A DNA stretch of 64,000 nt from the NCBI RefSeq assembly GCF_988243305.1, contig NZ_OZ547136.1; one strand, written 5' to 3'. Below are positions 1-36,609 of the stretch, in pieces (position 1 is the first letter of the stretch; every line of letters begins with the position of its first letter). Under the pieces are notes generated by a model that saw nothing but the letters and a program-made list of their open reading frames with translations, was not told the DNA's origin and searched no databases. The translations under genes and the position numbers were made by a program.

Positions 1-415
1 AGCGACAATCAATGCTCTGACACCAGTGCTGTGTGGATGGATAAGCTACTTCAGGCTGACGGAAGTCAGAGGAGTGCTGGAGGAGCTGGATGGCTGGATC
101 AAACGGAAACTGCGTTGCTTGTTGTAGCGGCAGTGGAAGAGACCGCTAACCCGGGCAAAGAACCTGCAAAGAGCAGGACTGAGTAAGGACAGGGCAATGA
201 TCTCTGCGTACAACAACCACGGGCCATGGTGGAACTCAGGGTCAAGCCATATGAATCAGGCGATAAAGAATACATGGTTCAGGAGGCAGGGTCTGATATC
301 ACTGCTGGAACAGTAGAGGCAGTTCCAGAGTTAACATGAACCGCCGTATGCGGAACCGCACGTACGGTGGTGTGAGAGGACGGCGGGAGTGATCCCGCCT
401 CCTACTCGATCAATT
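1..415 (+). mobile_element. Group II intron, 3' portion (end of intron-encoded protein ORF plus probable domains V-VI)
   Basis: Frame 2 reads ...CGWISYFRLTEVRGVLEELDGWIKRKLRCLL, then after a TAG RQWKRPLTRAKNL..., typical of a group II intron RT/maturase C-terminus; hairpin ccgtatgcgg/ccgcacgtacgg near 340-375 resembles domain V. Window starts inside the element; 3' boundary approximate. Confidence 0.55.
2..315 (+). pseudogene. Group II intron RT/maturase, C-terminal fragment interrupted by an in-frame TAG at 125-127
   Basis: Same reading frame continues across the TAG with maturase-like sequence (RQWKRP...); no database check. Confidence 0.5.
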
Positions 416-464
416 TTAAAACACCTCCTATGTAGGTGGTGATCGTTCATGTGGGGCTTTCTGA

Positions 465-640
465 CAGACTGCCTCGTCATTCCATTCGTATCGCCAGTAA
501 CTGGCGTTTGTATTGTGGCAGTTCTGGTATACGTTTCCCTGTGTATCTGCACTGGTTCAGCAAGGTTTGAAAAGGAGTATCCCTTGCAAATAACCGAAGC
601 ATTACTTTCAGAGCCGGAGCTGTTTTTGTTGCTGTGATCC
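465..640. repeat. Copy A of a roughly 180-bp conserved non-coding element (inverted relative to copy B at 7836-8030)
   Basis: By-eye alignment of 465-640 with the reverse complement of 7836-8030 gives roughly 75-80 percent identity, including shared blocks ggtttgaaaagga, gcaaataaccgaagc and ttcagagccgg. Confidence 0.5.
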
Positions 641-676
641 ATTTCAATTTTTTCGTGACAAATTATTTATAAATAT

Positions 677-1939
677 ATGATTATGTTTTTAAAAATGCAG
701 GCTGAAAGTATGAAGAATAAATACAAATTAAATGAGTTTTTGGATGTAAAACGCCTTCAGACCCTGCAGGACAACTTTTCAAAATCAATGATGATCGCGC
801 TCGTGGTTGTGGATGAGAATGGTATCCCGGTCACTAAGCCCAGCGGTTTTTCAGACTTCTGCATGCGTTCGCGTCTCAACCCGACACTGGCGCACCACTG
901 TTATGAAAGCGACAACGCTGGTGGCCGGGCCGCGATGCACGCTCGCAAACCGGTGGTTTATCGCTGCCACTGCGGTTTTGTCGAATTCGCTGTCCCAATC
1001 ATGATTAACGATCATTATCTCGGTGCTTTTATTTCCGGTCAGGTAAAAGTCGAAGAAGAGAAAGAACAGAGCATTTCCTATATTCTGAATAATAATGACG
1101 TCTGGAAAGATAATCCTTGGTTAATTAATTTGCACCAGAATACACGTCGCATGCCGTATGAGCGTTTTGAGTCTACTGCCTCGACGTTACTACACGTATC
1201 GTCTTATCTGGTCGAACAAGCGCACACCAATAATATCCAACGCGAACTTCGTAAAAAGGATCTTGCACTGGCTAATGAGTTAAGAAAACGTGTAGAGATA
1301 GAACGCTCACTACATGAAGCTGAATTTAAAGCGCTCTCTTATCAGATAAATCCGCACTTTTTATTTAACGTATTAAATACCATTGGCCGGTTAGCTTTTC
1401 TTGAAGATGCGCAGCGTACCGAAACAATGGTGCACGATTTCTCTGACATGATGCGCTATTTGTTACGTAAAAATAGTCACGGCCTGATTACTCTGCGTAA
1501 TGAAATAAATTACGTCAACAACTATATGTCGATCCAAAAAGTGCGTATGAGAGACCGTTTCGATTACCTGTGCGATATCCCGGAAAAATATCTGGATGTA
1601 GTCTGCCCGTTTTTGATCCTGCAACCGCTGGTGGAAAACTTCTTTAACTACGTAGTGGAGCCAAGGGATAGCAATAGTCATCTGCTGATCCGTGCCACGG
1701 ACGATGGCCTGAACGTGATTATTGAAGTCACTGACAATGGCGACGGCATCGCACCAGATACCATTAATCGCATTTTATCAGGCGACCAAAAATTGCAAAA
1801 AGGCAGTATTGGCATTAACAACATAAAAAATAGATTGAAGTTGTTATTTGGCGAGAGCTATGGCTTGGAAATAATGAGCCCTAACAAACCCAGGATGGGT
1901 ACAACCATTAAACTTCGGTTCCCAATGCAGGAAGCCTGA
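677..1939 (+). CDS. Cytoplasmic sensor histidine kinase with N-terminal PocR-type ligand-binding domain (LytS/YesM-type kinase core)
   Basis: 420 aa ORF; Cys/His-rich PocR-like N-terminus (CYESDNAGG...[14 protein letters not shown]), H-box NPHFLFN, C-terminal HATPase-like region; low GC. Confidence 0.7.
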
Positions 1940-1955
1940 TACAGGAAAAGGACAT

Positions 1956-3011
1956 ATGTTTACCATTGTTATCGTTGAAGATGAGCCCATCGAATTAGAA
2001 TCCCTGCGGCAGATTATCTCCCAGTGTGTGGAAAACGCTGCGATCCATGAAGCCTCAACCGGTAAAAAAGCGATTCACTTAATTGACCAACTGAGTCAAA
2101 TCGATATGATCTTAGTGGACATTAATATTCCGTTGCCGAACGGTAAACAGGTGATTGAATATCTGAAGAAAAAAAACAGCGATACTAAAATCATCGTAAT
2201 CACGGCCAATGATGACTTTGATATAGTACGCAGCATGTACAACCTTAAAGTGGATGATTATCTGCTCAAACCAGTGAAAAAATGTATCTTGACCGACACC
2301 ATCAAAAAAACCCTAGCATTCGACGAAGGAGAAAATGAAAAATCCCGCGCCCTAAAACAGAAAGTGTTCGCCATGATAGACGATTGCGATTACACCCAGT
2401 GGCACAACTTTATTTTTGACACGCTCAACGGTGCCTGTCCGGTGGATATGATAGAAGAGGATAAGCGCAAAGACGTGATCGATTTTCTGGAAATAGTTAG
2501 CCAGTATATGACCGCCAAAGGGGAAAAGTTAATGCCGACTAACCGTAAAGTCGCCGCGCTGATCAAAGACATCAACCAGTATGGCATGATGGAAAGCCGC
2601 TATTTCCGCATCATGATCAGCCTGCTGACCATTAGCGAAGAGCTGTTTGATTACGCATTAAAAGGCTATACAGGCAATATCGATTTTATCGAACGAGCGA
2701 AATTCCATATTGAGAAAAATATTCTCAGAAACTTGACGCTCGATGACGTGGCAGCAAAATCGTTTGTCAGTGCCTGCTATTTGAGCCGTACCTTTAAGAA
2801 AATTACCGGGTTCGGGTTTTCGAACTATATTGCCACGCGTAAAATTACTATCGCCAAATCGTTATTGCGGTTCAGTGACTTACAAGTAAATACCATTGCG
2901 CTGGAACTGGCATACCAGGATTCAAACTATTTTTGCCGCATCTTCAAAAAAGATACTGGCATGACCCCCTCTGATTATCGAAAAGTCGTGTCCCCGGGAA
3001 TTACACGGTGA
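1956..3011 (+). CDS. Response regulator with receiver domain and AraC-type HTH output (YesN-like)
   Basis: 351 aa; N-terminal receiver (IVEDEP...LVDINIP), C-terminal AraC HTH (YLSRTFKK...DSNYFCRIFKKDTGMTPSDYRK); start 17 nt after the kinase stop with RBS aaaagga. Confidence 0.75.
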   Translation: MFTIVIVEDEPIELESLRQIISQCVENAAIHEASTGKKAIHLIDQLSQIDMILVDINIPLPNGKQVIEYLKKKNSDTKIIVITANDDFDIVRSMYNLKVDDYLLKPVKKCILTDTIKKTLAFDEGENEKSRALKQKVFAMIDDCDYTQWHNFIFDTLNGACPVDMIEEDKRKDVIDFLEIVSQYMTAKGEKLMPTNRKVAALIKDINQYGMMESRYFRIMISLLTISEELFDYALKGYTGNIDFIERAKFHIEKNILRNLTLDDVAAKSFVSACYLSRTFKKITGFGFSNYIATRKITIAKSLLRFSDLQVNTIALELAYQDSNYFCRIFKKDTGMTPSDYRKVVSPGITR

Positions 3012-3139
3012 TGGCGTGATTTTGCATTGGCCCGATAATGAAAGCAAAATAGTCCAACACGCCCGCAAGATAGTTTACGCCCACTTGTCAGGTTCCTATC
3101 CTAAGATAGGAATAAACTTCCCAAACAAGTGGGCTCGCT

Positions 3140-4291
3140 TTGAACGATTACCTGTTTACCTCCGAATCCGTTGCCGAAGGGCATCCCGATAAAATGGCGG
3201 ACCAAATTTCTGATGCCATTTTGGATGCGATACTCCTACAGGACCCGTGGGGTAAGGTTGCCTGTGAATGCTTGGTGAAAACTGGTGCCACTATTGTTGC
3301 CGGAGAAATATCTACCCATGCCGCCGTGGATATTGAGAAGATTGTCCGCAACACCATAAAAGAGATTGGTTACGACCATTCGCGATTGGGGTTTGATGGC
3401 AATACCTGCTGTGTATTAAATATCCTTGGCAAACAGTCCGCCAATATTGCTGACGGCATTCGCGGCCACTCGATGGAAGAACTGGGGGCGGGCGATCAGG
3501 GCATCACCTTCGGTTACGCCTGTGATGAAACGTCGGAACTGATGCCCGCCACGCTGGTATACGCCCATCGTCTGATGGAGCGCCAGGCGCAGTTGCGTAA
3601 ATCCCAACGGTTACCATTTTTACTCCCTGATGCCAAAAGCCAGGTTACCCTGCGCTATCAGGATAATCGTGTTCATTCAGTAGATACCGTTGTGGTGTCT
3701 ACCCAACACAGCCCTGACGTTTCTCTGGACGCGCTACGGGAAGCGGTCATCGAAGAAATTGTTAAACCTGTGATGCCTTCGCACTGGCTCACGCCACAAA
3801 CCCGCTTTCTGGTGAACCCTGCAGGCAGTTTTGTGATTGGCGGGCCGGTGGGTGACTGCGGGCTAACGGGGCGTAAAATTATTGTTGATACCTATGGCGG
3901 CGCGGCTTGCCATGGCGGCGGCGCGTTTTCAGGCAAAGATCCGTCGAAAGTCGATCGTTCCGCCGCCTACGCTGCTCGCTATGTGGCGAAAAACATCGTC
4001 GCCGCTGGGCTTGCCTCACGCTGTGAAGTCCAGTTGGGATGGGCCATCGGCCTGCCCCGCCCTGTTTCCGTCAGGATTAACACCTTCGGTACACAAACAG
4101 TGTCATCTGAAGCGTTGCTGAGAGGCGTTAACAGCCATTTCGATCTTAGCGTGTTCGGCATCATTACTACGCTTGATCTGCTGGTCCCCCGCTATCGTAA
4201 AACAGCCTGCTATGGTCACTTTGGTCGCGACAGCTTTCCGTGGGAAGTTACGGACAAAGCGGCGCTATTATACGAAGACGTTGGACGTTAA
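3140..4291 (+). CDS. S-adenosylmethionine synthetase (methionine adenosyltransferase) paralogue
   Basis: 383 aa; MetK hallmarks [63 protein letters not shown]. Apparent TTG start with no obvious RBS; exact start uncertain. Confidence 0.8.
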
Positions 4292-4335
4292 GCCGACGAC
4301 GCGCAGCACAGTTGAATTTATTACAGGAGAAATTT

Positions 4336-4881
4336 ATGTCTGGGAAAAGTTTAGGCTTAATCGAAACCGTCGGGATGTCTGCGGCGGTAGAAGCCGCCGA
4401 TGCCGCAATGAAATCCGCTAACGTTAGTCTGGTAGGCTATGAATTGACGAAAGGCGGCGGGATGGTGACCGTGAAGCTGGAAGGGGAAGTGGGCGCAATT
4501 AACGCGGCGGTAGCGGCAGCCATCAGCGCGGCAAGCCGGGTTGGCGAGGTGTATGCCCATAAGGTGATCGCCCGCACCGCGCAGCATATCGAGCAGATTA
4601 TTCACTCTAAAGTGACCGCCGGCGTCGCAGAACCTCAACCTGAAGTGCCTGCTGCACAACCGACACTGCAGGCTGAAAACGCGCCTTCACAGACATTCCC
4701 GGTGGTTAACCTTGATACGTCAATCAGCGCATCCTGTATGGATGTCACTGATGAAACGCTGAAGTCCATGGAGCAGCATCAACCGGTTAAACCCTCAATA
4801 GAAAACACTAAACCTACAAAATCTGATGTACCGCAGGAGGCAGCAAAGAAAGGTCCTCGTTCCAGCGGCAAGAAAAAATAA
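4336..4881 (+). CDS. Bacterial microcompartment shell protein (BMC-H, PduA/EutM-like) with about 90-aa low-complexity C-terminal tail
   Basis: N-terminal 90 aa MSGKSLGLIETVGMSAAVEAADAAMKSANVSLVGYE... align with PduA/EutM; RBS aggag upstream of ATG at 4336; tail rich in P/A/Q/E/K. Confidence 0.75.
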   Translation: MSGKSLGLIETVGMSAAVEAADAAMKSANVSLVGYELTKGGGMVTVKLEGEVGAINAAVAAAISAASRVGEVYAHKVIARTAQHIEQIIHSKVTAGVAEPQPEVPAAQPTLQAENAPSQTFPVVNLDTSISASCMDVTDETLKSMEQHQPVKPSIENTKPTKSDVPQEAAKKGPRSSGKKK

Positions 4882-4899
4882 GTAAATTGCTATGACGCT

Positions 4900-4935
4900 G
4901 CCGCGATAACAATTTCTTTATCGCGGCATTTTTTT
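4900..4935 (+). terminator. Rho-independent terminator after the BMC-H gene
   Basis: Hairpin gccgcgataa / ttatcgcggc followed by a T-run. Confidence 0.6.
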
Positions 4936-5237
4936 GCTTAACAGATAAAGTAAAAAACCATCTGCATAGCGGGCGGCTTTGACACGGCCCCCTGAAAGGG
5001 GGCTTAAACACTACCCTTTCAGGCCCAGTTGTATTTGTCTTTCTTCTTCCTCTTTTGCTACCTTGTTCGAAAAGGGACGCTCGTCCTCGCCCACTGTTCT
5101 GTATGCATACCTGCTCCCACTGCAAATTATATTGCTGGGCTATGTTAACAAGCCTATATGCTATTAAAAACTCATGAGCAACATATTGATAATACCATTC
5201 TTATATATCCACGCTTAAGTAAATAACTCTTACATAA

Positions 5238-5435
5238 CTAACTATTCCATCTCACTTCTTCCTTAGCGAGTTTTCGGTATGCAATAGGAGCTATACCAAA
5301 GCGGCGAGTAAATGCCCTTGTAAATGTCTGCTGAAAATCAAACTGATATTTAAAAGTGATAGTCGTGACCGATTCAGTAGTAGAACGTAGTTCTTCTGCT
5401 GCATTTATTAATATACCTACCAATAGAAATACCAA
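5238..5435 (-). pseudogene. MarA/TetD-like AraC-family regulator, C-terminal fragment
   Basis: 65 aa ORF holds only the second HTH (KYQFDFQQTFTRAFTRRFGIAPIAYRK), similar to the TetD C-terminus; no intact N-terminal half in frame. Confidence 0.5.
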
Positions 5436-5553
5436 TGATATGTTTAAACAATTTCTGTAAATACCATTTTGAATATCCAGCTTTTTTGCCTCAATATTTA
5501 TTGAGAGTTCTACCTCAAGATTTTCATCAATTCATTTAGCAAGCTCATTGATA

Positions 5554-6225
5554 TCAGCGCTGTTTTTTATAGTAGCGTTCATTTTTATCGATGCCTGTGA
5601 AGGTTGATTGGGTCAACTCCAGTACTATGCAACCCTCTCTGAAAAGGGATTTATTATCAGGTTGCAGAATGCAACTTCGCACCACCCCCGTAAACAAAGA
5701 AAAAAGCAGGAACGCCAGAGCCTCACTACGAATTTCCGAACATATTTCTCTATATAACTTACCTTTTTCGAAAATATAACATAGTAATTTCACAAAATTA
5801 TTGACATCCACCATTTTTTGTAAGAAATTTATTCTTATATCATCCGGACATTCTTCACAAAAAAACACAATATAAATTACATTCCGTAAGTGTACATTAT
5901 ATTGTAATTTAATCAGGCTACGTGATAAGCAACGATACATCGCTTTAACCGGTTCAGAAACTCTCCCATTTTTGATGGCTGTAAGCTCATCAAATAATGA
6001 TAGTGGTACCCGCTCGATGACTTGTCGCAGAAGATCTTTTTTTTCGTTGAAATACCAGTATATGGCCCCCCGAGTACAACCTGCGCGCACCGCAATCATC
6101 TCCAGTGTCGTCTTCGAAAAGCCCGTCTCACAAAAGCAGAACTCTGCCGCATCCAGGATTTGTTTGCGGGTTTCTTCCGCTGCAAATTTTGTGTGCCGCA
6201 CCACTGTTGAAATCTCCATTGACAT
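5554..6225 (-). CDS. TetR/AcrR-family transcriptional repressor
   Basis: 223 aa; N-terminal TetR HTH (TRKQILDAAEFCFCETGFSKTTLEMIAVRAGCTRGAIYWYFNEK). Confidence 0.7.
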   Translation of the reverse strand: MSMEISTVVRHTKFAAEETRKQILDAAEFCFCETGFSKTTLEMIAVRAGCTRGAIYWYFNEKKDLLRQVIERVPLSLFDELTAIKNGRVSEPVKAMYRCLSRSLIKLQYNVHLRNVIYIVFFCEECPDDIRINFLQKMVDVNNFVKLLCYIFEKGKLYREICSEIRSEALAFLLFSLFTGVVRSCILQPDNKSLFREGCIVLELTQSTFTGIDKNERYYKKQR

Positions 6226-6324
6226 CTTATTTCAGGAAATATCTCTGGGGCATTTAGTACCAACCCAACAGCCATTTACTCAGGCGCAGTATGTTGTTTA
6301 CTGCACCTGAATATTTACTCATGC

Positions 6325-7389
6325 TTATGATTGCTCAGCTTCAGTCTTATCCGATGATTTCTTATTTCTGCGGCTGAAGAACCCGGCAATTAACATATAG
6401 AAGAGAGGAATATAAAAGATTGCCAGTATCGTAGCAGTGATCATCCCTCCAACCACACCAGTACCGATGGCATGTTTACTTCCGGAACTTGCTCCAGTCG
6501 AGACAGCCAGTGGGATAACCCCCATTACAAATGCCAGCGAAGTCATAATTATCGGTCTTAACCTCACTCTCGCCGCTTCAACAGCAGCCTCTTTAATGCT
6601 TAGTCCTTCTTTCTCATGCAATTCACGAGCAAACTCCACGATAAGTATGGCATTTTTCGCAGACAGCCCTATTGTTGTTAATAAACCGACCTGGAAAAAG
6701 ACATCGTTACCAAGGCCGCGCAACAAAGTAGCACAGACAGCCCCCAGGACACCAAGCGGAACAACCAGCATGACCGAGAAAGGAATGCTCCAGCTTTCAT
6801 ACAGTGCAGCCAGACACAGAAAGACGATCAACAGTGAAAGTGCATATAGTGCAGGAGCCTGAGAACCTGAAAGTCGTTCCTCAAAAGACAAACCTGTCCA
6901 GGAAATATGGAAACCTTCGGGAAGTCTTGCCGCAATATCCTCAATTGCTTTCATTGCATCCCCGGAACTGTATCCTGGTGCCGGTTCCCCCAGGATTTCG
7001 ACAGCAGAGATACCATTATATTGCTCCAGTTTTGGTGAGCCATAAATCCATTTGCCTGTTGCAAAAGAGGCAAAGGAAACCATGTCGCCATCACTGTTAC
7101 GGACATACCATTTATCAAAATCCTGCGGTGATATACGTGAGCCGGGTTCGCCCTAAATATAGACTTTTTTCACCCGTCCACGATCGTTAAAATCATTTAC
7201 ATACATCGAACCCCAGGCTGCTGGCATTATGTTGTCGACGTCGCTCATGCTCAGTTTAAGCGCCTGAACTTTCTCGTCATCAATCAGAATCTGGAACTGA
7301 GGCTCATCGTTCATGCCGTTAGGACGAACCATGTTTAACGCTGGACTTTTCGCCGCTTCAGCAAGAAGCTGATTTCGGGCCTGGATCAT
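6325..7389 (-). pseudogene. RND efflux transporter (AcrB/AcrF-like), C-terminal remnant, frameshifted and 5'-truncated by IS2
   Basis: ORFs 6325-7083 and 7153-7389 match the C-terminal third of AcrB-type pumps (VRPNGM...[27 protein letters not shown]...[13 protein letters not shown]) in two frames; upstream part absent, IS2 end at 7482. Confidence 0.7.
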
Positions 7390-7481
7390 TTTTTCATGGC
7401 CAGCTCCGCTACGATCCTCGAGGAACAGGTCAAACCCTGTAGCATTCCCCAGTTCTGATACGGCAGGGGGCGTTTTAAAAC

Positions 7482-7838
7482 TAGACTAGCCCCCAGAATC
7501 TCCAGACAACCAATATCACTTAAATAAGTGATAGTCTTAATACTAGTTTTTAGACTAGTCATTGGAGAACAGATGATTGATGTCTTAGGACCGGAGAAAC
7601 GCAGACGGCGTACTACACAGGAAAAGATCGCTATTGTTCAGCAGAGCTTTGAGCCGGGAATGACGGTCTCCCTTGTTGCCCGGCAACACGGTGTGGCAGC
7701 CAGCCAGTTATTTCTCTGGCGCAAGCAATACCAGGAGGGAAGTCTTACTGCTGTGGCCGCAGGAGAACAGGTCGTTCCTGCCTCTGAACTTGCTGCTGCC
7801 ATGAAGCAGATTAAAGAACTCCAGCGCCTGCTGAACAA
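7482..7838 (+). mobile_element. IS2 left end, truncated about 360 bp into the element
   Basis: tagactagcccccagaatctccagacaaccaatatcacttaaataagtgatagtc matches the IS2 left inverted repeat region; orfA (InsC) sequence diverges from IS2 after ...KELQRLL. Confidence 0.75.
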
Positions 7839-7863
7839 AACGCCGGATGTCTCCCGGCTCTGA
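7573..7863 (+). pseudogene. IS2 orfA (InsC) truncated, with a foreign 9-codon tail
   Basis: [56 protein letters not shown]... is IS2 InsC-like; the C-terminal residues do not continue as IS2. Confidence 0.7.
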
Positions 7864-8030
7864 AATTAAGGCTTCGGTTATTTGCACGAAATGTTCCTTT
7901 TCAAACCCTGTTGAATTTTGTTAAGCCGGTGCAGACACACGGAAAACGCACATCAACACCGGACGGTACGATACAAACACCAGTGACTGGCGGGACGAAG
8001 GGAATGACGAATCAGTCAGGAAATGATGAC
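7836..8030. repeat. Copy B of the roughly 180-bp conserved non-coding element (inverted relative to copy A)
   Basis: See copy A; lies between the IS2 truncation point and the small ORF/alpA. Confidence 0.5.
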
Positions 8031-8141
8031 AAACAGTTGGCAGACCAGAGGAGTCAGCAGAAAGATGAGCGGGAGTGTCGCCAGCATCGGGGACAGGGCT
8101 GATTTCCGCAATACCAGCGCCGGCATTGCAACACGTTTCAT
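8016..8141 (-). CDS. Hypothetical 41-aa hydrophobic peptide, translationally coupled to the AlpA-family gene
   Basis: MKRVAMPALVLRKSALSPMLATLPLIFLLTPLVCQLFVIIS; its ATG overlaps the alpA stop in an ATGA arrangement. Not in the ORF track (below 60 aa). Confidence 0.3.
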   Translation of the reverse strand: MKRVAMPALVLRKSALSPMLATLPLIFLLTPLVCQLFVIIS

Positions 8142-8371
8142 GCTGCTGCTCCTCGTGATTCCTCAATTCGCTGCTGCATCCACTGCTCCACTTCACTTTT
8201 GTACCAGCGGCTGCTGCGCCCCAGTTTGATGGGTTTAGGGAAATGACCTTCACTGATCAGCTTGTAAAACCATTTATCGGTCATACCGGTGAAACTGGTG
8301 ATGTAGTTCATGTCGATCAGGGGATCGTCGGCACGCAGTAACACGCTGTCGTGGCTTGTTGTGGTCAACAT
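8138..8371 (-). CDS. AlpA-family phage/island transcriptional regulator (excisionase-like HTH)
   Basis: 77 aa; ...YITSFTGMTDKWFYKLISEGHFPKPIKLGRSSRWYKSEVEQW matches AlpA-family DNA-binding proteins. Confidence 0.7.
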   Translation of the reverse strand: MLTTTSHDSVLLRADDPLIDMNYITSFTGMTDKWFYKLISEGHFPKPIKLGRSSRWYKSEVEQWMQQRIEESRGAAA

Positions 8372-27275: not shown

Positions 27276-27597
27276 ATGAAAACATTACCCGACACGCATG
27301 TACGGGAGGTATCGTGCTGCCCGTCTCCCGTCACCATCTGGCAGACACTGCTCACCCGGTTACTGGACCAGCATTACAGCCTTACGCTGAATGACACACC
27401 GTTCGCCGATGAACGTGTGATTGAGCAGCATATTGAGGCAGGTATTGCACTGTGTGATGCGGTGAACTTTCTCGTGGAAAAATACGCACTGGTACGAACC
27501 GACCAGCCGGGATTCAGCGCAGGAACTTCGTCGCAGTTAATCAACAGCATTGATATTCTCCGGGCACGCCGGGCAACAGGTCTGATGACCCGCAGCA
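27276..27597 (+). pseudogene. Type IV toxin of the CbtA/YeeV family, 3' end cut by Tn10
   Basis: [46 protein letters not shown]... is CbtA-like; from 27598 the frame reads into the IS10 outside end; the original 3' end resumes after Tn10 at 35053. Confidence 0.7.
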
Positions 27598-28923
27598 CTG
27601 ATGAATCCCCTAATGATTTTTATCAAAATCATTAAGTTAAGGTAGATACACATCTTGTCATATGATCAAATGGTTTCGCCAAAAATCAATAATCAGACAA
27701 CAAGATGTGCGAACTCGATATTTTACACGACTCTCTTTACCAATTCTGCCCCGAATTACACTTAAAACGACTCAACAGCTTAACGTTGGCTTGCCACGCA
27801 TTACTTGACTGTAAAACTCTCACTCTTACCGAACTTGGCCGTAACCTGCCAACCAAAGCGAGAACAAAACATAACATCAAACGAATCGACCGATTGTTAG
27901 GTAATCGTCACCTCCACAAAGAGCGACTCGCTGTATACCGTTGGCATGCTAGCTTTATCTGTTCGGGCAATACGATGCCCATTGTACTTGTTGACTGGTC
28001 TGATATTCGTGAGCAAAAACGACTTATGGTATTGCGAGCTTCAGTCGCACTACACGGTCGTTCTGTTACTCTTTATGAGAAAGCGTTCCCGCTTTCAGAG
28101 CAATGTTCAAAGAAAGCTCATGACCAATTTCTAGCCGACCTTGCGAGCATTCTACCGAGTAACACCACACCGCTCATTGTCAGTGATGCTGGCTTTAAAG
28201 TGCCATGGTATAAATCCGTTGAGAAGCTGGGTTGGTACTGGTTAAGTCGAGTAAGAGGAAAAGTACAATATGCAGACCTAGGAGCGGAAAACTGGAAACC
28301 TATCAGCAACTTACATGATATGTCATCTAGTCACTCAAAGACTTTAGGCTATAAGAGGCTGACTAAAAGCAATCCAATCTCATGCCAAATTCTATTGTAT
28401 AAATCTCGCTCTAAAGGCCGAAAAAATCAGCGCTCGACACGGACTCATTGTCACCACCCGTCACCTAAAATCTACTCAGCGTCGGCAAAGGAGCCATGGG
28501 TTCTAGCAACTAACTTACCTGTTGAAATTCGAACACCCAAACAACTTGTTAATATCTATTCGAAGCGAATGCAGATTGAAGAAACCTTCCGAGACTTGAA
28601 AAGTCCTGCCTACGGACTAGGCCTACGCCATAGCCGAACGAGCAGCTCAGAGCGTTTTGATATCATGCTGCTAATCGCCCTGATGCTTCAACTAACATGT
28701 TGGCTTGCGGGCGTTCATGCTCAGAAACAAGGTTGGGACAAGCACTTCCAGGCTAACACAGTCAGAAATCGAAACGTACTCTCAACAGTTCGCTTAGGCA
28801 TGGAAGTTTTGCGGCATTCTGGCTACACAATAACAAGGGAAGACTTACTCGTGGCTGCAACCCTACTAGCTCAAAATTTATTCACACATGGTTACGCTTT
28901 GGGGAAATTATGAGGGGATCTCC

Positions 28924-28926
<3 letters not shown>
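27598..28926 (+). mobile_element. IS10-left
   Basis: IS10 outside end and 402-aa transposase; the last few bases of the inside end differ from the canonical terminus. Confidence 0.85.
27705..28913 (+). CDS. IS10 transposase (IS4 family)
   Basis: 402 aa MCELDILHDSLYQFCPELHLKRLNSLTLACHALLDC... Confidence 0.9.
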   Translation: MCELDILHDSLYQFCPELHLKRLNSLTLACHALLDCKTLTLTELGRNLPTKARTKHNIKRIDRLLGNRHLHKERLAVYRWHASFICSGNTMPIVLVDWSDIREQKRLMVLRASVALHGRSVTLYEKAFPLSEQCSKKAHDQFLADLASILPSNTTPLIVSDAGFKVPWYKSVEKLGWYWLSRVRGKVQYADLGAENWKPISNLHDMSSSHSKTLGYKRLTKSNPISCQILLYKSRSKGRKNQRSTRTHCHHPSPKIYSASAKEPWVLATNLPVEIRTPKQLVNIYSKRMQIEETFRDLKSPAYGLGLRHSRTSSSERFDIMLLIALMLQLTCWLAGVHAQKQGWDKHFQANTVRNRNVLSTVRLGMEVLRHSGYTITREDLLVAATLLAQNLFTHGYALGKL

Positions 28927-29926
<1,000 letters not shown>

Positions 29927-29941
29927 CTAATTTTTGTTGAC

Positions 29942-29991
29942 ACTCTATCATTGATAGAGTTATTTTACCACTCCCTATCAGTGATAGAGAA
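29942..29991. promoter_or_regulatory. tet operators O1/O2 in the divergent tetR-tetA promoter region
   Basis: Palindromes actctatcattgatagagt and tccctatcagtgatagaga between tetR and tetA. Confidence 0.9.
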
Positions 29992-29998
29992 AAGTGAA

Positions 29999-31204
29999 AT
30001 GAATAGTTCGACAAAGATCGCATTGGTAATTACGTTACTCGATGCCATGGGGATTGGCCTTATCATGCCAGTCTTGCCAACGTTATTACGTGAATTTATT
30101 GCTTCGGAAGATATCGCTAACCACTTTGGCGTATTGCTTGCACTTTATGCGTTAATGCAGGTTATCTTTGCTCCTTGGCTTGGAAAAATGTCTGACCGAT
30201 TTGGTCGGCGCCCAGTGCTGTTGTTGTCATTAATAGGCGCATCGCTGGATTACTTATTGCTGGCTTTTTCAAGTGCGCTTTGGATGCTGTATTTAGGCCG
30301 TTTGCTTTCAGGGATCACAGGAGCTACTGGGGCTGTCGCGGCATCGGTCATTGCCGATACCACCTCAGCTTCTCAACGCGTGAAGTGGTTCGGTTGGTTA
30401 GGGGCAAGTTTTGGGCTTGGTTTAATAGCGGGGCCTATTATTGGTGGTTTTGCAGGAGAGATTTCACCGCATAGTCCCTTTTTTATCGCTGCGTTGCTAA
30501 ATATTGTCGCTTTCCTTGTGGTTATGTTTTGGTTCCGTGAAACCAAAAATACACGTGATAATACAGATACCGAAGTAGGGGTTGAGACGCAATCGAATTC
30601 GGTATACATCACTTTATTTAAAACGATGCCCATTTTGTTGATTATTTATTTTTCAGCGCAATTGATAGGCCAAATTCCCGCAACGGTGTGGGTGCTATTT
30701 ACCGAAAATCGTTTTGGATGGAATAGCATGATGGTTGGCTTTTCATTAGCGGGTCTTGGTCTTTTACACTCAGTATTCCAAGCCTTTGTGGCAGGAAGAA
30801 TAGCCACTAAATGGGGCGAAAAAACGGCAGTACTGCTCGGATTTATTGCAGATAGTAGTGCATTTGCCTTTTTAGCGTTTATATCTGAAGGTTGGTTAGT
30901 TTTCCCTGTTTTAATTTTATTGGCTGGTGGTGGGATCGCTTTACCTGCATTACAGGGAGTGATGTCTATCCAAACAAAGAGTCATCAGCAAGGTGCTTTA
31001 CAGGGATTATTGGTGAGCCTTACCAATGCAACCGGTGTTATTGGCCCATTACTGTTTGCTGTTATTTATAATCATTCACTACCAATTTGGGATGGCTGGA
31101 TTTGGATTATTGGTTTAGCGTTTTACTGTATTATTATCCTGCTATCGATGACCTTCATGTTAACCCCTCAAGCTCAGGGGAGTAAACAGGAGACAAGTGC
31201 TTAG
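29999..31204 (+). CDS. tetA: Tetracycline efflux MFS transporter TetA (class B)
   Basis: 401 aa from MNSSTKIALVITLLDAMGIGLIMPVLPTLLREF... Confidence 0.95.
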   Translation: MNSSTKIALVITLLDAMGIGLIMPVLPTLLREFIASEDIANHFGVLLALYALMQVIFAPWLGKMSDRFGRRPVLLLSLIGASLDYLLLAFSSALWMLYLGRLLSGITGATGAVAASVIADTTSASQRVKWFGWLGASFGLGLIAGPIIGGFAGEISPHSPFFIAALLNIVAFLVVMFWFRETKNTRDNTDTEVGVETQSNSVYITLFKTMPILLIIYFSAQLIGQIPATVWVLFTENRFGWNSMMVGFSLAGLGLLHSVFQAFVAGRIATKWGEKTAVLLGFIADSSAFAFLAFISEGWLVFPVLILLAGGGIALPALQGVMSIQTKSHQQGALQGLLVSLTNATGVIGPLLFAVIYNHSLPIWDGWIWIIGLAFYCIIILLSMTFMLTPQAQGSKQETSA

Positions 31205-31316
31205 TTATTTCGTCACCAAATGATGTTATTCCGCGAAATATAATGACCCTCTTGATAACCCAAGAGGGCATTTTTTACGATAAAGAAGATTTAGCTTCAA
31301 ATAAAACCTATCTATT

Positions 31317-31910
31317 TTATTTATCTTTCAAGCTCAATAAAAAGCCGCGGTAAATAGCAATAAATTGGCCTTTTTTATCGGCAAGCTCTTTTAGGTTTTT
31401 CGCATGTATTGCGATATGCATAAACCAGCCATTGAGTAAGTTTTTAAGCACATCATCATCATAAGCTTTAAGTTGGTTCTCTTGGATCAATTTGCTGACA
31501 ATGGCGTTTACCTTACCAGTAATGTATTCAAGGCTAATTTTTTCAAGTTCATTCCAACCAATGATAGGCATCACTTCTTGGATAGGGATAAGGTTTTTAT
31601 TATTATCAATAATATAATCAAGATAATGTTCAAATATACTTTCTAAGGCAGACCAACCATTTGTTAAATCAGTTTTTGTTGTGATGTAGGCATCAATCAT
31701 AATTAATTGCTGCTTATAACAGGCACTGAGTAATTGTTTTTTATTTTTAAAGTGATGATAAAAGGCACCTTTGGTCACCAACGCTTTTCCCGAGATCTCA
31801 TCTATTGAAACAGCTTGATAGCCTTTTTCAACAAACAATATTCGTGCTGAGTTAACCAGTGATTGATAGGTACTCTTAAAATTTTCTTGTTGATGATTTT
31901 TATTTTCCAT
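31317..31910 (-). CDS. tetC: Tn10 TetC (TetR-like transcriptional regulator)
   Basis: 197 aa from MENKNHQQ; conserved position between tetA and tetD. Confidence 0.8.
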   Translation of the reverse strand: MENKNHQQENFKSTYQSLVNSARILFVEKGYQAVSIDEISGKALVTKGAFYHHFKNKKQLLSACYKQQLIMIDAYITTKTDLTNGWSALESIFEHYLDYIIDNNKNLIPIQEVMPIIGWNELEKISLEYITGKVNAIVSKLIQENQLKAYDDDVLKNLLNGWFMHIAIHAKNLKELADKKGQFIAIYRGFLLSLKDK

Positions 31911-31997
31911 GATAGATTTAAAATAACATACCGTCAGTATGTTTATGGTATCATGATGATGTGGTCGTGACAATCTTAAGAACATTTAGGTTATTTT

Positions 31998-32414
31998 ATG
32001 TATATTGAACAGCATTCTCGCTATCAAAATAAAGCTAATAACATCCAATTAAGATATGATGATAAGCAGTTTCATACAACGGTTATCAAAGATGTTCTAT
32101 TATGGATTGAACATAATTTAGATCAGTCTTTACTGCTTGATGATGTGGCGAATAAAGCGGGTTATACCAAGTGGTATTTTCAGCGGCTGTTCAAAAAAGT
32201 AACAGGGGTCACACTGGCTAGCTATATTCGTGCTCGTCGTTTGACGAAAGCGGCTGTTGAGTTGAGGTTGACGAAAAAAACTATCCTTGAGATCGCATTA
32301 AAATATCAATTTGATTCCCAACAATCTTTTACACGTCGATTTAAGTACATTTTTAAGGTTACACCAAGTTATTATCGGCGTAATAAATTATGGGAATTGG
32401 AGGCAATGCACTGA
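31998..32414 (+). CDS. tetD: Tn10 TetD (MarA/SoxS-like AraC-family regulator)
   Basis: 138 aa; two AraC HTH units; stop codon lies in the IS10-right inside end as in Tn10. Confidence 0.85.
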   Translation: MYIEQHSRYQNKANNIQLRYDDKQFHTTVIKDVLLWIEHNLDQSLLLDDVANKAGYTKWYFQRLFKKVTGVTLASYIRARRLTKAAVELRLTKKTILEIALKYQFDSQQSFTRRFKYIFKVTPSYYRRNKLWELEAMH

Positions 32415-32632
32415 GAGATCCCCTCATAATTTCCCCAAAGCGTAACCATGTGTGAATAAATTTTGAGCTAGTAGGGTTGCAGCCACGAGTAAGTCTTCCC
32501 TTGTTATTGTGTAGCCAGAATGCCGCAAAACTTCCATGCCTAAGCGAACTGTTGAGAGTACGTTTCGATTTCTGACTGTGAACCGCCCCGGGAATCCTGG
32601 AGACTAAACTTCCTGAGAAAGAGGTAAACAGG

Positions 32633-32959
32633 ATGACTAAAAATACTCGTTTTTCCCCCGAAGTCCGTCAACGGGCAGTCCGTATGGTTCTGGAAAGTCA
32701 GAGCGAATATGACTCACAATGGGCGACAATTTGTTCCATTGCTCCAAAGATTGGCTGTACGCCGGAGACTCTGCGTGTCTGGGTTCGCCAGCATGAGCGG
32801 GATACCGGGGGCGGTGATGGAGGGCTCACCACCGCTGAACGTCAGCGTCTGAAAGAGCTGGAACGTGAAAATCGTGAACTGCGCCGCAGTAACGATATCC
32901 TTCGCCAGGCTTCCGCTTATTTTGCGAAGGCGGAGTTCGACCGCCTCTGGAAAAAATGA
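32633..32959 (+). CDS. IS629-like OrfA (IS3-family transposase N-terminal protein)
   Basis: [60 protein letters not shown]... Confidence 0.8.
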
Positions 32960-33846
32960 TGCCACTGCTGGATAAGCTGCGTGAGCAGTACGGGGTCGGA
33001 CCGCTATGCAGCGAACTGCATATTGCCCCGTCAACGTATTACCACTGTCAGCAACAGCGACATCATCCGGATAAACGCAGTGCCCGTGCGCAGCGCGATG
33101 ACTGGCTGAAGAAAGAGATACAGCGCGTATACGATGAAAATCACAAGGTATACGGTGTGCGTAAAGTCTGGCGTCAGTTGTTACGGGAAGGTATCAGAGT
33201 GGCCAGATGCACTGTGGCACGTCTCATGGCGGTTATGGGACTTGCCGGTGTTCTCCGGGGTAAAAAGGTCCGTACGACCATCAGCCGGAAAGCCGTTGCC
33301 GCAGGCGACCGCGTAAACCGTCAGTTCGTGGCAGAACGACCTGACCAGCTGTGGGTGGCTGATTTTACTTACGTCAGCACATGGCGGGGCTTCGTCTATG
33401 TGGCGTTCATCATTGATGTGTTTGCCGGATACATCGTGGGGTGGCGGGTCTCATCGTCCATGGAAACGACATTCGTGCTGGATGCACTGGAGCAGGCGTT
33501 ATGGGCCCGTCGACCGTCCGGCACGGTCCATCACAGTGATAAAGGTTCTCAGTATGTATCGCTGGCCTACACACAGCGGCTTAAGGAAGCCGGATTACTG
33601 GCATCAACAGGAAGTACAGGCGACTCGTATGACAACGCGATGGCGGAGAGCATCAATGGTCTTTACAAAGCGGAGGTAATACACCGTAAGAGCTGGAAAA
33701 ACCGTGCAGAAGTGGAACTGGCCACACTCACGTGGGTGGACTGGTATAACAATCGACGATTGCTGGAAAGGCTGGGCCATACTCCTCCGGCAGAAGCAGA
33801 AAAAGCTTATTATGCTTCCATCGGAAACGATGATCTGGCAGCCTGA
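32956..33846 (+). CDS. IS629-like OrfB (DDE integrase/transposase core; normally expressed as OrfAB by -1 frameshift)
   Basis: 296 aa with DDE-type core (…WVADFTYV…HHSDKGSQY…DNAMAES…). Confidence 0.8.
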
Positions 33847-34945
33847 GTTCACAGATAAAACACTCTCCAGGAAACCCGGGGCGGTTCACTGTGTTAGCCT
33901 GGAAGTGCTTGTCCCAACCTTGTTTCTGAGCATGAACGCCCGCAAGCCAACATGTTAGTTGAAGCATCAGGGCGATTAGCAGCATGATATCAAAACGCTC
34001 TGAGCTGCTCGTTCGGCTATGGCGTAGGCCTAGTCCGTAGGCAGGACTTTTCAAGTCTCGGAAGGTTTCTTCAATCTGCATTCGCTTCGAATAGATATTA
34101 ACAAGTTGTTTGGGTGTTCGAATTTCAACAGGTAAGTTAGTTGCTAGAACCCATGGCTCCTTTGCCGACGCTGAGTAGATTTTAGGTGACGGGTGGTGAC
34201 AATGAGTCCGTGTCGAGCGCTGATTTTTTCGGCCTTTAGAGCGAGATTTATACAATAGAATTTGGCATGAGATTGGATTGCTTTTAGTCAGCCTCTTATA
34301 GCCTAAAGTCTTTGAGTGACTAGATGACATATCATGTAAGTTGCTGATAGGTTTCCAGTTTTCCGCTCCTAGGTCTGCATATTGTACTTTTCCTCTTACT
34401 CGACTTAACCAGTACCAACCCAGCTTCTCAACGGATTTATACCATGGCACTTTAAAGCCAGCATCACTGACAATGAGCGGTGTGGTGTTACTCGGTAGAA
34501 TGCTCGCAAGGTCGGCTAGAAATTGGTCATGAGCTTTCTTTGAACATTGCTCTGAAAGCGGGAACGCTTTCTCATAAAGAGTAACAGAACGACCGTGTAG
34601 TGCGACTGAAGCTCGCAATACCATAAGTCGTTTTTGCTCACGAATATCAGACCAGTCAACAAGTACAATGGGCATCGTATTGCCCGAACAGATAAAGCTA
34701 GCATGCCAACGGTATACAGCGAGTCGCTCTTTGTGGAGGTGACGATTACCTAACAATCGGTCGATTCGTTTGATGTTATGTTTTGTTCTCGCTTTGGTTG
34801 GCAGGTTACGGCCAAGTTCGGTAAGAGTGAGAGTTTTACAGTCAAGTAATGCGTGGCAAGCCAACGTTAAGCTGTTGAGTCGTTTTAAGTGTAATTCGGG
34901 GCAGAATTGGTAAAGAGAGTCGTGTAAAATATCGAGTTCGCACAT
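33728..34945 (-). pseudogene. IS10-right transposase, C-terminus replaced by read-through into IS629
   Basis: Identical to the IS10-left transposase for about 350 residues, then diverges (…ANTVNRPGFPGECF…) at the IS629 junction. Confidence 0.8.
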
Positions 34946-35113
34946 CTTGTTGTCTGATTATTGATTTTTGGCGAAACCATTTGATCATATGACAAGATGT
35001 GTATCTACCTTAACTTAATGATTTTTACCAAAATCATTAGGGGATTCATCAGCCCGCAGCAACTACAGAACGGTAAATAACATTACCCGGGGGAAGCATC
35101 CGGAGGCGAAACA

Positions 35114-36573: not shown

Positions 36574-36595
36574 TTCGATTCCGAGTCCGGCACCA
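36574..36595 (+). other. Island right junction (attR-like): direct repeat of the tRNA-Phe 3' end, one G missing
   Basis: ttcgattccgagtccgg-cacca matches the T-arm/acceptor 3' end of E. coli tRNA-Phe (TTCGATTCCGAGTCCGGGCACCA); not a complete tRNA. Confidence 0.7.
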
Positions 36596-36609
36596 CTAAT
36601 TCTTAAGAA

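What the first reader, a model, noticed from the sequence alone, without database searches (positions are those of the whole stretch)
465..8030. Two diverged copies of a roughly 180-bp element in inverted orientation bracketing a 7.2-kb segment
Copy A (465-640) and copy B (7836-8030, opposite strand) share about 75-80 percent identity by eye. Together they bracket the kinase/regulator/metK/BMC cassette, the decayed efflux genes and the IS2 fragment. Copy B abuts the IS2 truncation point and the alpA gene; copy A abuts the intron 3' end. They may be relics of att sites or island ends from tandem or nested integration, or a conserved leader or small-RNA locus.
Basis: seen in the sequence. Interest (0 to 1): 0.55.

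Follow-up and report, generated by a model that had tools for sequence, protein, structure and literature searches.

The report
Two relics of an island gene start
The two inverted 160-bp copies are real, but they are leftover front ends (upstream spacer plus first 11-21 codons) of a gene that is repeated in the backbone of E. coli genomic islands; they are scars of DNA patchwork, not attachment sites or a new RNA.

Summary
The inverted repeat is real. Window 467-617 (+) matches 8017-7854 (-), 123 of 165 columns identical, local score 123 against 17.9 +/- 2.3 for shuffles.

It is not a free-standing element. Each copy is the intergenic spacer, ribosome-binding site and first codons (MQITEAL(L/I)SEP) of a 170-182-aa UCP030791/PF27752 gene. 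That gene is a diverged member of the YagK/YfjJ ("inovirus Gp2") superfamily, found in the backbone of CP4-like, tRNA-linked E. coli islands.

The sequence occurs in about 3,500-3,750 of 5,426 complete E. coli genomes, up to 8 places per genome. It always lies upstream of that gene, after either an AlpA-like gene or two zinc-ribbon genes.

Copy B is in place, with its gene cut at codon ~18-21 by a microhomology joint to the inside of IS2. Copy A is a solitary 157-bp fragment lying next to one joint (411/412) of the rearrangement that made the common E. coli grp locus co-directional. In five other genera and in E. coli strain L73, grpPQRS is convergent with grpO.

I found no att similarity, no Rfam match, no convincing covariation and no inversion isomers among 536 carriers.

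Verdict: ordinary mosaic-island scars. The modest point of interest is the history of the grp locus.

The parts
461..617 (+). Copy A: a solitary relic of the upstream spacer plus the first 11 codons of a UCP030791/PF27752 gene. It carries conserved block 1 (TCGTCATTCCATTCGT), a terminator-like hairpin at 492-506, SD AAGGAG at 572-577 and a TTG start at 584-586, reading LQITEALLSEP.
   Evidence: The left edge at 461 comes from alignment to zinc-ribbon-type copies and from a hit starting at 461. The right edge at 617 is where all family homology stops.
7854..8020 (-). Copy B, shared part: the same spacer in its normal place, downstream of the AlpA-like gene and a 41-codon ORF, with a terminator-like hairpin at 7992-7978.
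   Evidence: Intact counterparts are L002, L003 and L007.
7824..7887 (-). Remnant of the UCP030791/PF27752 gene belonging to copy B: GTG start at 7887, [21 protein letters not shown]. It contains a hairpin plus T-run at 7858-7842.
   Evidence: RefSeq marks it as an incomplete CDS (L001 12259-12342). The N-terminus matches P0071 and P0096.
7482..7832 (+). IS2 fragment (left end plus the 5' part of insA). It is joined to the UCP gene remnant inside a 13-of-14-nt microhomology, CAGCAGGCG(G/C)TGGA, at 7820-7832.
   Evidence: IS2 hits cover query 2883-3233 and island hits start at query 3221. Sequence.
8016..8141 (-). 41-codon hydrophobic ORF overlapping the stop of the AlpA-like gene. Its stop codon lies in the first bases of the conserved spacer.
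   Evidence: A counterpart 43-codon ORF follows the zinc-ribbon genes in L006. blastx contexts are.
8138..8371 (-). AlpA-like / excisionase-family HTH gene of the backbone module.
   Evidence: phrog_2790, E 6e-10.
412..460 (.). 49-bp filler between the grpO terminator/intron and copy A. Read on the minus strand it is a hairpin (CACCACCTACATAGGAGGTG) followed by TTTTAAAATT.
   Evidence: It has no counterpart in related grp loci. There is an 87.5% match downstream of dpdD in another island.
1..411 (+). 3' part of a group II intron, inserted 5 nt after the T-run of the grpO terminator (GTTAT^C). Domains V/VI lie at 339-410.
   Evidence: Other intron copies match up to 410-414.
623..4960 (+). The grpP-grpQ-grpR-grpS block with 87 bp of native grpP upstream sequence and the grpS terminator. 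It is inverted relative to grpA-O when compared with all related loci.
   Evidence: blastn gives 81% to L133 and 91% to L143 over exactly these limits.
5070..7480 (-). Decayed efflux cargo (HTH fragment, TetR gene, RND permease pseudogene) lying between the grp block and the IS2 fragment.
   Evidence: An intact version is present in strain STO_Bone1B (L144, 87%).

Best explanation
Both copies are non-functional remnants of the 5' region of paralogous copies of one island-backbone gene, and they mark backbone/cargo joints. They are not a unit that acts together.

The intact unit reads: [AlpA-like gene, or two zinc-ribbon genes] - small hydrophobic ORF - about 130-nt spacer - Shine-Dalgarno - a 170-182-aa UCP030791/PF27752 gene. 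That gene is a YagK/YfjJ ("inovirus Gp2"-type, Rep-like fold) paralogue lacking an obvious HUH motif. This module is repeated in the CP4-like, tRNA-linked islands of E. coli.

In this pheV island two such modules were cut by illegitimate recombination when cargo was joined in:
- Copy B stayed next to its AlpA-like gene. It lost its gene after codon ~18-21 through a microhomology joint to the interior of IS2.
- Copy A kept only 157 bp (spacer plus 11 codons). It now lies between the grpO terminator and grpP, 50 bp to the right of one joint of the inversion that turned the ancestral convergent grpPQRS -> <- grpO arrangement into the co-directional grpA-S locus common in E. coli.

Shown: the sequence identity of the two copies, their contexts, the truncation points, and the derived gene order. 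Inferred: the order of events, and the claim that neither copy has a function today. grpP keeps 87 bp of its own upstream sequence, including a motif conserved in other genera, so copy A is not needed to explain grpP expression.
For: Identity of the element:
- Copy B is followed by [19 protein letters not shown], the N-terminus of a protein family with 337 database relatives, all carrying PF27752.
- Copy A carries the same SD and start, and LQITEALLSEP.

Distribution:
- The sequence matches in 3,492-3,756 of 5,426 complete E. coli genomes, with up to 8 places per genome.
- In 124 copies from E. coli genomes and gut metagenomes, the upstream neighbour is either AlpA plus a 41-aa ORF or zinc-ribbon genes plus a 43-aa ORF.
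- In every one of those copies the downstream sequence is the UCP gene or a visible disruption of it. Only the window's copy A has grpP downstream.

The protein:
- The AF2 model has pLDDT 89.
- Foldseek matches YagK/YfjJ / inovirus-Gp2-annotated proteins at E 1e-6 to 1e-13.

The joints:
- IS2 and UCP homologies overlap at 7820-7832.
- Homology of grpP to relatives starts at 623, and homology of the grpO side ends at 411.
- Six related loci have grpPQRS convergent with grpO or grpN: a metagenome relative (L133/L134), Buttiauxella (L135), Pectobacterium (L140), Mixta (L141), Vibrio (L142) and E. coli L73 (L143).
- grpP keeps the conserved upstream motif TGTGA(C/T)CCATTTCAAT.
Against: - The spacer is more conserved than one might expect for plain intergenic DNA. 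Block 1 and an inverted repeat, GCCGGTG..N25-27..CACCGGC, recur across variants that have different upstream genes, so it may carry a cis-acting site I cannot identify.
- Part of that conservation was imposed by my search pattern.
- The exact sequence of events that put copy A beside the grp joint cannot be reconstructed. No intermediate genome was found.
- Whether copy A influences grpPQ transcription was not tested. It contains a terminator-like hairpin and lies 90 bp upstream of the ATG at 710.
Confidence: 0.82

Rival explanations
1. The two copies are substrates of a homologous-recombination inversion: the 7.2-kb segment between them flips, or flipped once, and this produced the present grp gene order.
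For: The copies are in inverted orientation and bracket grpPQRS, and grpPQRS is indeed inverted relative to related loci.
Against: - Identity is only about 75%, with a longest identical run of 16 nt. From my own knowledge, that is below the roughly 20-30 nt RecA needs.
- All 536 near-identical matches to 455-660 are full length, and 515-527 genomes carry the same right-hand arrangement, so no isomer was seen.
- The real breakpoints of the inverted block are 411/412 (or 622/623) and 4960/4961, not 617/618 and 7853/7854.
- Undoing an A-B inversion leaves grpS separated from the grpO terminator.
- Copy B is uniformly AlpA-type along its whole length. It differs from the intact L077 copy by one indel and two substitutions over the shared stretch, and shows no chimerism with copy A.
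Confidence: 0.04
2. The copies are relics of attachment sites or island termini left by tandem integration of two islands.
For: They lie in a pheV island that is clearly composite, and the backbone modules to which they belong are duplicated.
Against: - There is no similarity to tRNA-Phe beyond 5-7 nt chance words.
- The true direct repeat of the tRNA 3' end is at 36574-36596.
- In other genomes the sequence is always internal to the module, between AlpA or zinc-ribbon genes and the UCP gene, in one orientation relative to them.
- The flanks do not form a target duplication: tggggcttt to the left of A versus gaaatgatg to the right of B.
Confidence: 0.03
3. The conserved spacer is a functional cis element of the module. 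It could be a transcription attenuator or leader controlling read-through from the AlpA-small-ORF operon into the UCP gene, or an operator or origin-like site for the Rep-fold YagK/YfjJ-family proteins. If so, the copies retain that activity.
For: - Terminator-like hairpins occur in both copies, found 1 and 3 times against 0.2 and 0.8 expected from shuffles.
- A second hairpin plus T-run lies in codons 10-18.
- The inverted repeat GCCGGTG/CACCGGC is paired in 92.5% of cells, with a few double changes.
- No sigma-70-like promoter was found in the copy B spacer, which fits co-transcription with upstream genes.
- The neighbouring proteins have a Rep-like fold.
Against: - The first hairpin is absent in about 9 of 23 non-redundant variants; two of its pairs are broken in 9-14 of 23.
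- The RNAalifold covariation term is only -1.92 kcal/mol.
- Shuffle controls are not exceeded for pair and type counts.
- Folding z-scores are -0.7 to -1.3, and there is no Rfam match.
- The UCP protein lacks the HUH motif at the expected strand.
- Only 42 of 124 copies still have an intact gene.
Confidence: 0.11

Closest known systems
Backbone modules of CP4-57/CP4-6-type cryptic islands of E. coli (AlpA, YfjJ/YagK, YfjI, YeeP-CbtA/CbeA-type distal genes) and pheV/pheU/selC pathogenicity islands
   Same: The same gene families flank copy B: a YagK/YfjJ-domain protein with PF23343/PF11726 hits, an AlpA-like HTH, a GTPase, CbtA/YeeU, and DUF4942 at the distal end. The island is tRNA-Phe linked and has a tyrosine integrase.
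   Different: The UCP030791/PF27752 gene and its spacer are a separate, little-annotated paralogue. It has no hit in the local Pfam-A, NCBIfam or PHROGs libraries, and I found no paper naming it.
Gene-fragment scars at illegitimate-recombination joints in mosaic islands (pseudogene relics)
   Same: Both copies end inside a coding sequence at joints with unrelated DNA, one of them with 13-of-14-nt microhomology. RefSeq already labels the copy B remnant as an incomplete CDS.
   Different: Here two paralogous fragments happen to lie in inverted orientation 7.2 kb apart, which imitates a bracketing inverted repeat.
grp (glycyl-radical 1,2-propanediol) microcompartment locus of UPEC CFT073, with GrpP/GrpQ (c4545/c4546)
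   Same: The window carries grpP-S with the same products. PMC11724981 reports that grpP and grpQ are co-transcribed, are induced by D-serine and by 1,2-propanediol, and contribute to virulence.
   Different: That paper does not discuss the locus architecture. This analysis shows that the co-directional E. coli order is derived. It also shows that a 157-bp island-gene fragment, a 49-bp hairpin and a group II intron fill the grpO-grpP joint.
Inverted-repeat-bounded invertible or composite elements (IS-flanked composite transposons, invertible segments)
   Same: Two inverted copies flank a multi-gene segment.
   Different: There is no transposase or invertase tied to the repeats, no target duplication, no isomers, and only 75% identity. 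Elsewhere the sequence is single-copy per module with a fixed relation to its gene.

Membership tests
5' region of a UCP030791/PF27752 (YagK/YfjJ-superfamily) island gene | The sequence is followed in frame by the family's N-terminus, M/V/L-QITEAL(L/I)SEPG, after a Shine-Dalgarno. | tested here: met
   Copy B reads GTG 7887 + [20 protein letters not shown]. Copy A reads TTG 584 + QITEALLSEP, then diverges.
5' region of a UCP030791/PF27752 (YagK/YfjJ-superfamily) island gene | It lies downstream of an AlpA-like gene or zinc-ribbon genes plus a small ORF in the island backbone. | tested here: met
   Met for copy B and for about 120 other copies. Copy A has lost its upstream partner; its block 1 is of the zinc-ribbon-linked type.
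tRNA-island attachment site (attL/attR direct repeat) | Identity to the 3' end of the target tRNA gene. | tested here: not met
   The best shared words with tRNA-Phe are 5-7 nt. The real repeat, TTCGATTCCGAGTCCGG-CACCA, is at 36574-36596.
tRNA-island attachment site (attL/attR direct repeat) | Located at the island boundary, in direct orientation with the tRNA copy. | tested here: not met
   The copies are internal to the island, 28 kb from the distal repeat, and inverted relative to each other.
Terminal inverted repeats of a transposable or composite element | Target-site duplication outside the repeats, with the repeats occurring as pairs at other loci. | tested here: not met
   The flanks differ. 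Elsewhere the sequence occurs singly per module.
Described structured RNA (Rfam family, leader or sRNA) | A match to a covariance model, or a conserved structure with covariation. | tested here: not met
   No Rfam hit at E<=1 apart from the intron. The covariation term is -1.92 kcal/mol. Pair and type counts do not exceed shuffles. Folding z-scores are -0.7 to -1.3.
Described structured RNA (Rfam family, leader or sRNA) | A discrete transcript. | not testable with these tools
   No expression data are available here.
Rho-independent terminator | A G+C-rich hairpin followed by a T-run, conserved in the family. | tested here: inconclusive
   The pattern is present in both copies (492-506; 7992-7978). 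It is replaced by non-pairing sequence in about 9 of 23 variants.
HUH Rep / inovirus G2P-type replication initiator (for the downstream gene) | Rep-like palm/ferredoxin fold. | tested here: met
HUH Rep / inovirus G2P-type replication initiator (for the downstream gene) | HUH metal-binding motif and catalytic tyrosine. | tested here: not met
   The family alignment has (C/x)R(M/C)LLL where YfjJ has HAHAV, and there is no invariant His pair. The only invariant residue is F50. hhalign to the window's YfjJ-like protein is not significant.

The most novel reading that the evidence does not exclude
The roughly 130-nt spacer with the first codons of PF27752 genes may be a cis-acting boundary element of CP4-like islands, for example an operator, attenuator or origin-like site for the Rep-fold YagK/YfjJ-family proteins. 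It may also act as a preferred breakpoint where cargo is joined to the backbone.

This would explain two things: why block 1 and the GCCGGTG/CACCGGC inverted repeat persist behind two unrelated upstream gene sets, and why at least six different disruptions fall within about 70 bp of the start codon. Those disruptions are the IS66 end, the IS2-internal joint, the grp joint, a 50-nt deletion, a 57-nt insertion and a codon-2 nonsense mutation.
Probability: 0.1. Interest if true: 0.5.

Novelty: new member of a known kind. Interest (0 to 1): 0.22.

Why it matters
As an element it matters little. It is a pair of gene-start fragments of the kind that mosaic genomic islands accumulate, and recognising that prevents it from being mistaken for an att site, an invertible bracket or a new RNA.

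The useful by-product concerns the grp locus, whose GrpP/GrpQ system has been linked to uropathogenic virulence (PMC11724981). The widespread E. coli version, in about 536 of 5,426 complete genomes, is a derived and nearly clonal rearrangement of a locus that is convergent in five other genera and in one E. coli strain.

grpP kept only 87 bp of its native upstream DNA. Foreign fragments (an island-gene relic, a hairpin and a group II intron) now sit between grpO and grpP. Anyone mapping the grpPQ promoter or read-through from grpA-O should know this.

Tried and rejected
1. Exact-pattern scan of genome contigs (TCGTCATTCCNTTCGTN{45,75}TCTGCAC). It gave only two chance hits in unrelated MAGs, with about 1 expected.

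2. Viral contigs gave one IS66-cut copy. The phage collection gave no protein match. The module is therefore not a recognisable phage or satellite gene.

3. Homologous-recombination inversion between A and B: rejected (see rival explanations).

4. att-site relic: rejected.

5. Small RNA or structured leader: no support.

6. Sequence-level link of the UCP protein to YfjJ: BLASTP and hhalign were negative. The link rests on structure only and on source annotations.

7. Origin of the 412-460 filler: only a 40-nt, 87.5% match to a hairpin after dpdD in another island.

8. Search for a pre-rearrangement intermediate of the common E. coli grp locus: none found. 4961-5560 occurs almost only in grp-positive genomes, and at 87% in an intact efflux cluster of about 8 genomes.

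9. Recombination between two inverted copies of the group II intron as the cause of the inversion: considered because the intron sits 1 nt from the joint. There is no second intron copy at 4960/4961, and ancestral sequence continues about 16 nt past the intron site on the grpS side, so this is unsupported.


Full report
**1. The observation**

The repeat finder reports two collinear inverted pairs, 556-617/7854-7915 (85%) and 467-516/7968-8017 (84%). A gapped local alignment joins them into 467-617 (+) versus 8017-7854 (-). It has 123 identical positions in 165 columns and three indels. Its score is 123, against 17.9 +/- 2.3 (maximum 28) for 500 dinucleotide-preserving shuffles. MAFFT gives 78% column identity. 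No further copy exists in the window. The repeat is real.

**2. What the sequence is**

The window matches E. coli M217 (NZ_AP019189.1) at 99.7-99.9% over 1-27593, so RefSeq annotation could be transferred. On the minus strand the order is:
- a YagK/YfjJ-domain gene (9839-9273; PF23343 REP_ORF2-G2P and PF11726);
- a 201-aa gene;
- an AlpA-like HTH gene (8371-8138);
- a 41-codon ORF (8141-8016);
- copy B;
- a CDS remnant that RefSeq marks "incomplete, missing C-terminus".

In genomes where this module is intact (L002, L003, L007), copy B's counterpart is the spacer in front of a 182-aa gene. That gene is annotated "UCP030791 family putative phage-derived protein" or "hypothetical", and begins [18 protein letters not shown].

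Copy B has GTG at 7887 followed by exactly this N-terminus. Copy A has AAGGAG (572-577), TTG (584-586) and QITEALLSEP, then diverges at 617/618.

So each "element" is the intergenic spacer, the ribosome-binding site and the first 11 (A) or about 18-21 (B) codons of one gene family.

**3. Distribution and context**

- blastn finds the sequence in 3,492 (copy A query) and 3,756 (copy B query) of 5,426 complete E. coli genomes, with up to 8 places per genome, almost all chromosomal.
- A pattern scan of metagenome contigs gave 120 more stretches.
- Among 124 copies analysed, the upstream neighbours are of two kinds: the AlpA-like gene plus 41-aa ORF, or two zinc-ribbon genes plus a 43-aa ORF.
- The downstream sequence is always the UCP gene or a visible disruption of it. 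Only the window's copy A is followed by grpP.

The state of the 124 copies:

| Copies | State |
|---|---|
| 42 | intact ORF |
| 42 | IS66 end inserted at the start codon |
| 12 | CAA-to-TAA nonsense at codon 2 |
| 16 | shortened ORF |
| 3 | 50-nt deletion removing the SD and the first 8 codons |
| 3 | the IS2 joint of copy B |
| 1 | 57-nt insertion |
| 1 | copy A's grp joint |
| 4 | unclassified: 3 ORFs run off the contig, 1 has no start motif |

The family is mosaic. Copy A's left half resembles the zinc-ribbon-linked type and its right half the AlpA-linked types.

**4. The protein**

- PF27752 is precomputed for all 120 listed homologues, and some sources call them "inovirus Gp2 family".
- The local Pfam-A, NCBIfam and PHROGs libraries gave nothing.
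- The family is small: 56 representatives at 50% identity among 1.84 billion proteins.
- It is absent from the phage collection and rare on plasmids.
- An AF2 model built from a 22-sequence alignment has pLDDT 89.
- Foldseek links it to YagK/YfjJ / inovirus-Gp2-annotated proteins of many genera (E 1e-6 to 1e-13).
- The HUH motif seen in the window's YfjJ-like protein (HAHAV) is replaced by xR(M/C)LLL.
- Sequence-level comparison with YfjJ is not significant.

**5. Is the spacer a structured RNA or an att site?**

RNA:
- Rfam finds only the group II intron.
- RNAalifold gives -14.4 kcal/mol, with a covariation term of -1.92.
- For the two stems I named, hairpin 1 (CGCCAG/CTGGYG) is paired in 77% of cells, and two of its pairs are broken in 9-14 of 23 variants.
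- The inverted repeat GCCGGTG/CACCGGC is paired in 92.5% of cells. It is nearly invariant, and its 3' arm was part of my search pattern.
- Pair and type counts do not exceed shuffles.
- Folding z-scores are -0.7 to -1.3 on either strand.
- Both copies contain a terminator-like hairpin.
- No sigma-70-like promoter was found in copy B's spacer, which fits co-transcription with the upstream genes.

att site:
- The copies share only 5-7-nt words with tRNA-Phe.
- The true direct repeat of the tRNA 3' end is at 36574-36596.
- pheV and the integrase lie upstream of the window start.

**6. The truncation points**

Copy B: IS2 homology covers 7482-7832, and island/UCP homology starts at 7820. The overlap is CAGCAGGCG(G/C)TGGA, shared by insA and the UCP gene. 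So the joint is a microhomology-mediated deletion inside IS2, not an IS end.

Copy A: homology to every other family member stops at 617. From 623 onwards the sequence is homologous to the grpP upstream region of related loci (81% to L133, 91% to L143). That region includes the motif TGTGA(C/T)CCATTTCAAT, conserved in four other loci.

To the left, copy A begins at 461. Bases 412-460 are a 49-bp filler with a hairpin, and 1-411 are the 3' part of a group II intron. The intron is inserted 5 nt after the T-run of the grpO terminator. From my own knowledge, insertion after terminators is typical of bacterial class C introns.

**7. Copy A sits at a rearrangement joint**

In the closest GrpP relatives, grpPQRS is convergent with grpO or grpN. 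These are a metagenome relative at 89% (L133/L134), Buttiauxella, Pectobacterium, Mixta and Vibrio salinus. In Dryocola the gene after grpS is not grpO.

One E. coli genome, strain L73, carries a grp locus 90-91% identical to the common type and with this convergent order. Against L143:
- the window's 623-4960 aligns as one block;
- the grpO side aligns up to 411;
- the two alignments overlap by about 15 nt around GATAAC-AAAAAGCCA.

The common E. coli locus (grpA-O then grpP-S, all co-directional) is therefore derived by inversion of 623-4960, or of 412-4960. Its joints are at 411/412 and 4960/4961. Copy A and the 49-bp hairpin fill the left joint.

To the right of 4960 come 109 bp of unknown origin. 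After that comes a decayed efflux cluster (5070-7480) that is intact in strain STO_Bone1B. The IS2 fragment and copy B follow.

The arrangement is nearly clonal:
- 536 genomes carry 455-660 at 95% identity or more, all full length;
- 525 carry the intron joint;
- 515-527 carry the right-hand part.

**8. Does the pair act as a bracket?**

No evidence supports this.
- The longest identical run is 16 nt.
- No isomer exists among the carriers.
- The inversion breakpoints inferred from the relatives are not at the copies' inner edges.
- Copy B is uniformly of the AlpA-linked type (about three differences from the intact L077 copy) rather than chimeric.

If the inverted block was 412-4960, the two copies were direct repeats before the inversion. 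Each would have been a backbone module cut by cargo. That is the simplest reading of the history, but it is inference.

**9. Verdict**

It is wrong about att sites and island ends, and unsupported about a small RNA.

The feature is an ordinary by-product of island mosaicism. It deserves low interest, apart from what it reveals about the derived architecture of the virulence-linked grp locus.

A minority reading remains open: that the spacer is a cis-acting site of the YagK/YfjJ-type modules, or a preferred breakpoint. I put this at about 0.1.

Noticed in passing
window 27594-35052: A 7.5-kb segment absent from the otherwise collinear M217 genome. It is a Tn10-like tetracycline-resistance transposon inside the pheV island: IS4-family (IS10-type) transposase genes at 27705-28913 and 33728-34945 (minus strand), tetR 29294-29920 (minus strand), tet(B) 29951-31204, tetC 31317-31985 (minus strand), and an IS3-family transposase at 32956-33846.
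   Followed up: partly
window 36574-36596: TTCGATTCCGAGTCCGG-CACCA is a 22-nt copy of the 3' end of tRNA-Phe with one G missing. It is the distal direct repeat of the pheV island, next to the yghD/gsp cluster.
   Followed up: yes
L143 (E. coli strain L73, NZ_CP033378.1 688382-707047): A second type of grp locus in E. coli, 90-91% identical to the common one. grpPQRS is convergent with grpO, as in other genera, IS1 lies upstream of grpP, and the locus sits in a different island (YfjI, AlpA-like and inovirus-Gp2-family genes nearby).
   Followed up: partly
window 411/412 and L001 21542: The group II intron is inserted at GTTAT^C, one nucleotide from the point where homology of the grpO side to related loci ends. 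On the grpS side, ancestral sequence continues about 16 nt past the same site (to 4960), so about 15-17 nt appear at both joints in inverted orientation. I could not decide whether the intron or the terminator hairpin played a part in the inversion.
   Followed up: partly
L005 4323-5006 and L138 (strains B-JRPT-4119 and O15_8X); window 456-459: Two genomes carry an inversion plus a 738-bp deletion inside the intron. One breakpoint is at window 456-459, only 2-5 nt from the left edge of copy A.
   Followed up: partly
window 5070-7480; L144: The HTH fragment, TetR gene and RND permease pseudogene are a decayed copy of an efflux cluster. The cluster is intact, at 87% identity, in about 8 genomes including strain STO_Bone1B: SLC13 permease, HTH, TetR, a 3,135-bp RND permease, an adaptor, and a second TetR.
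   Followed up: partly
L002 6711-7293, L003 6814-7159, L007 3682-4186: A ProQ/FinO-family gene lies convergent to the UCP030791 gene in intact modules. It is annotated as frameshifted in all three genomes examined.
   Followed up: no
window 677 versus 710: RefSeq starts grpP at 677 (420 aa). All homologues outside the common E. coli type are 407-414 aa and align from the ATG at 710, which is preceded by a conserved GCAGGCTGAAAGT. The shorter start is more likely.
   Followed up: partly
L008, L009, L012 and 42 metagenome or genome copies: One particular disruption is very widespread: an IS66-family end (GTAAGCGT...) inserted exactly at the start codon of the zinc-ribbon-linked copy of the gene. 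It occurs in the 2013C-4187 genome and in many gut-metagenome contigs.
   Followed up: partly
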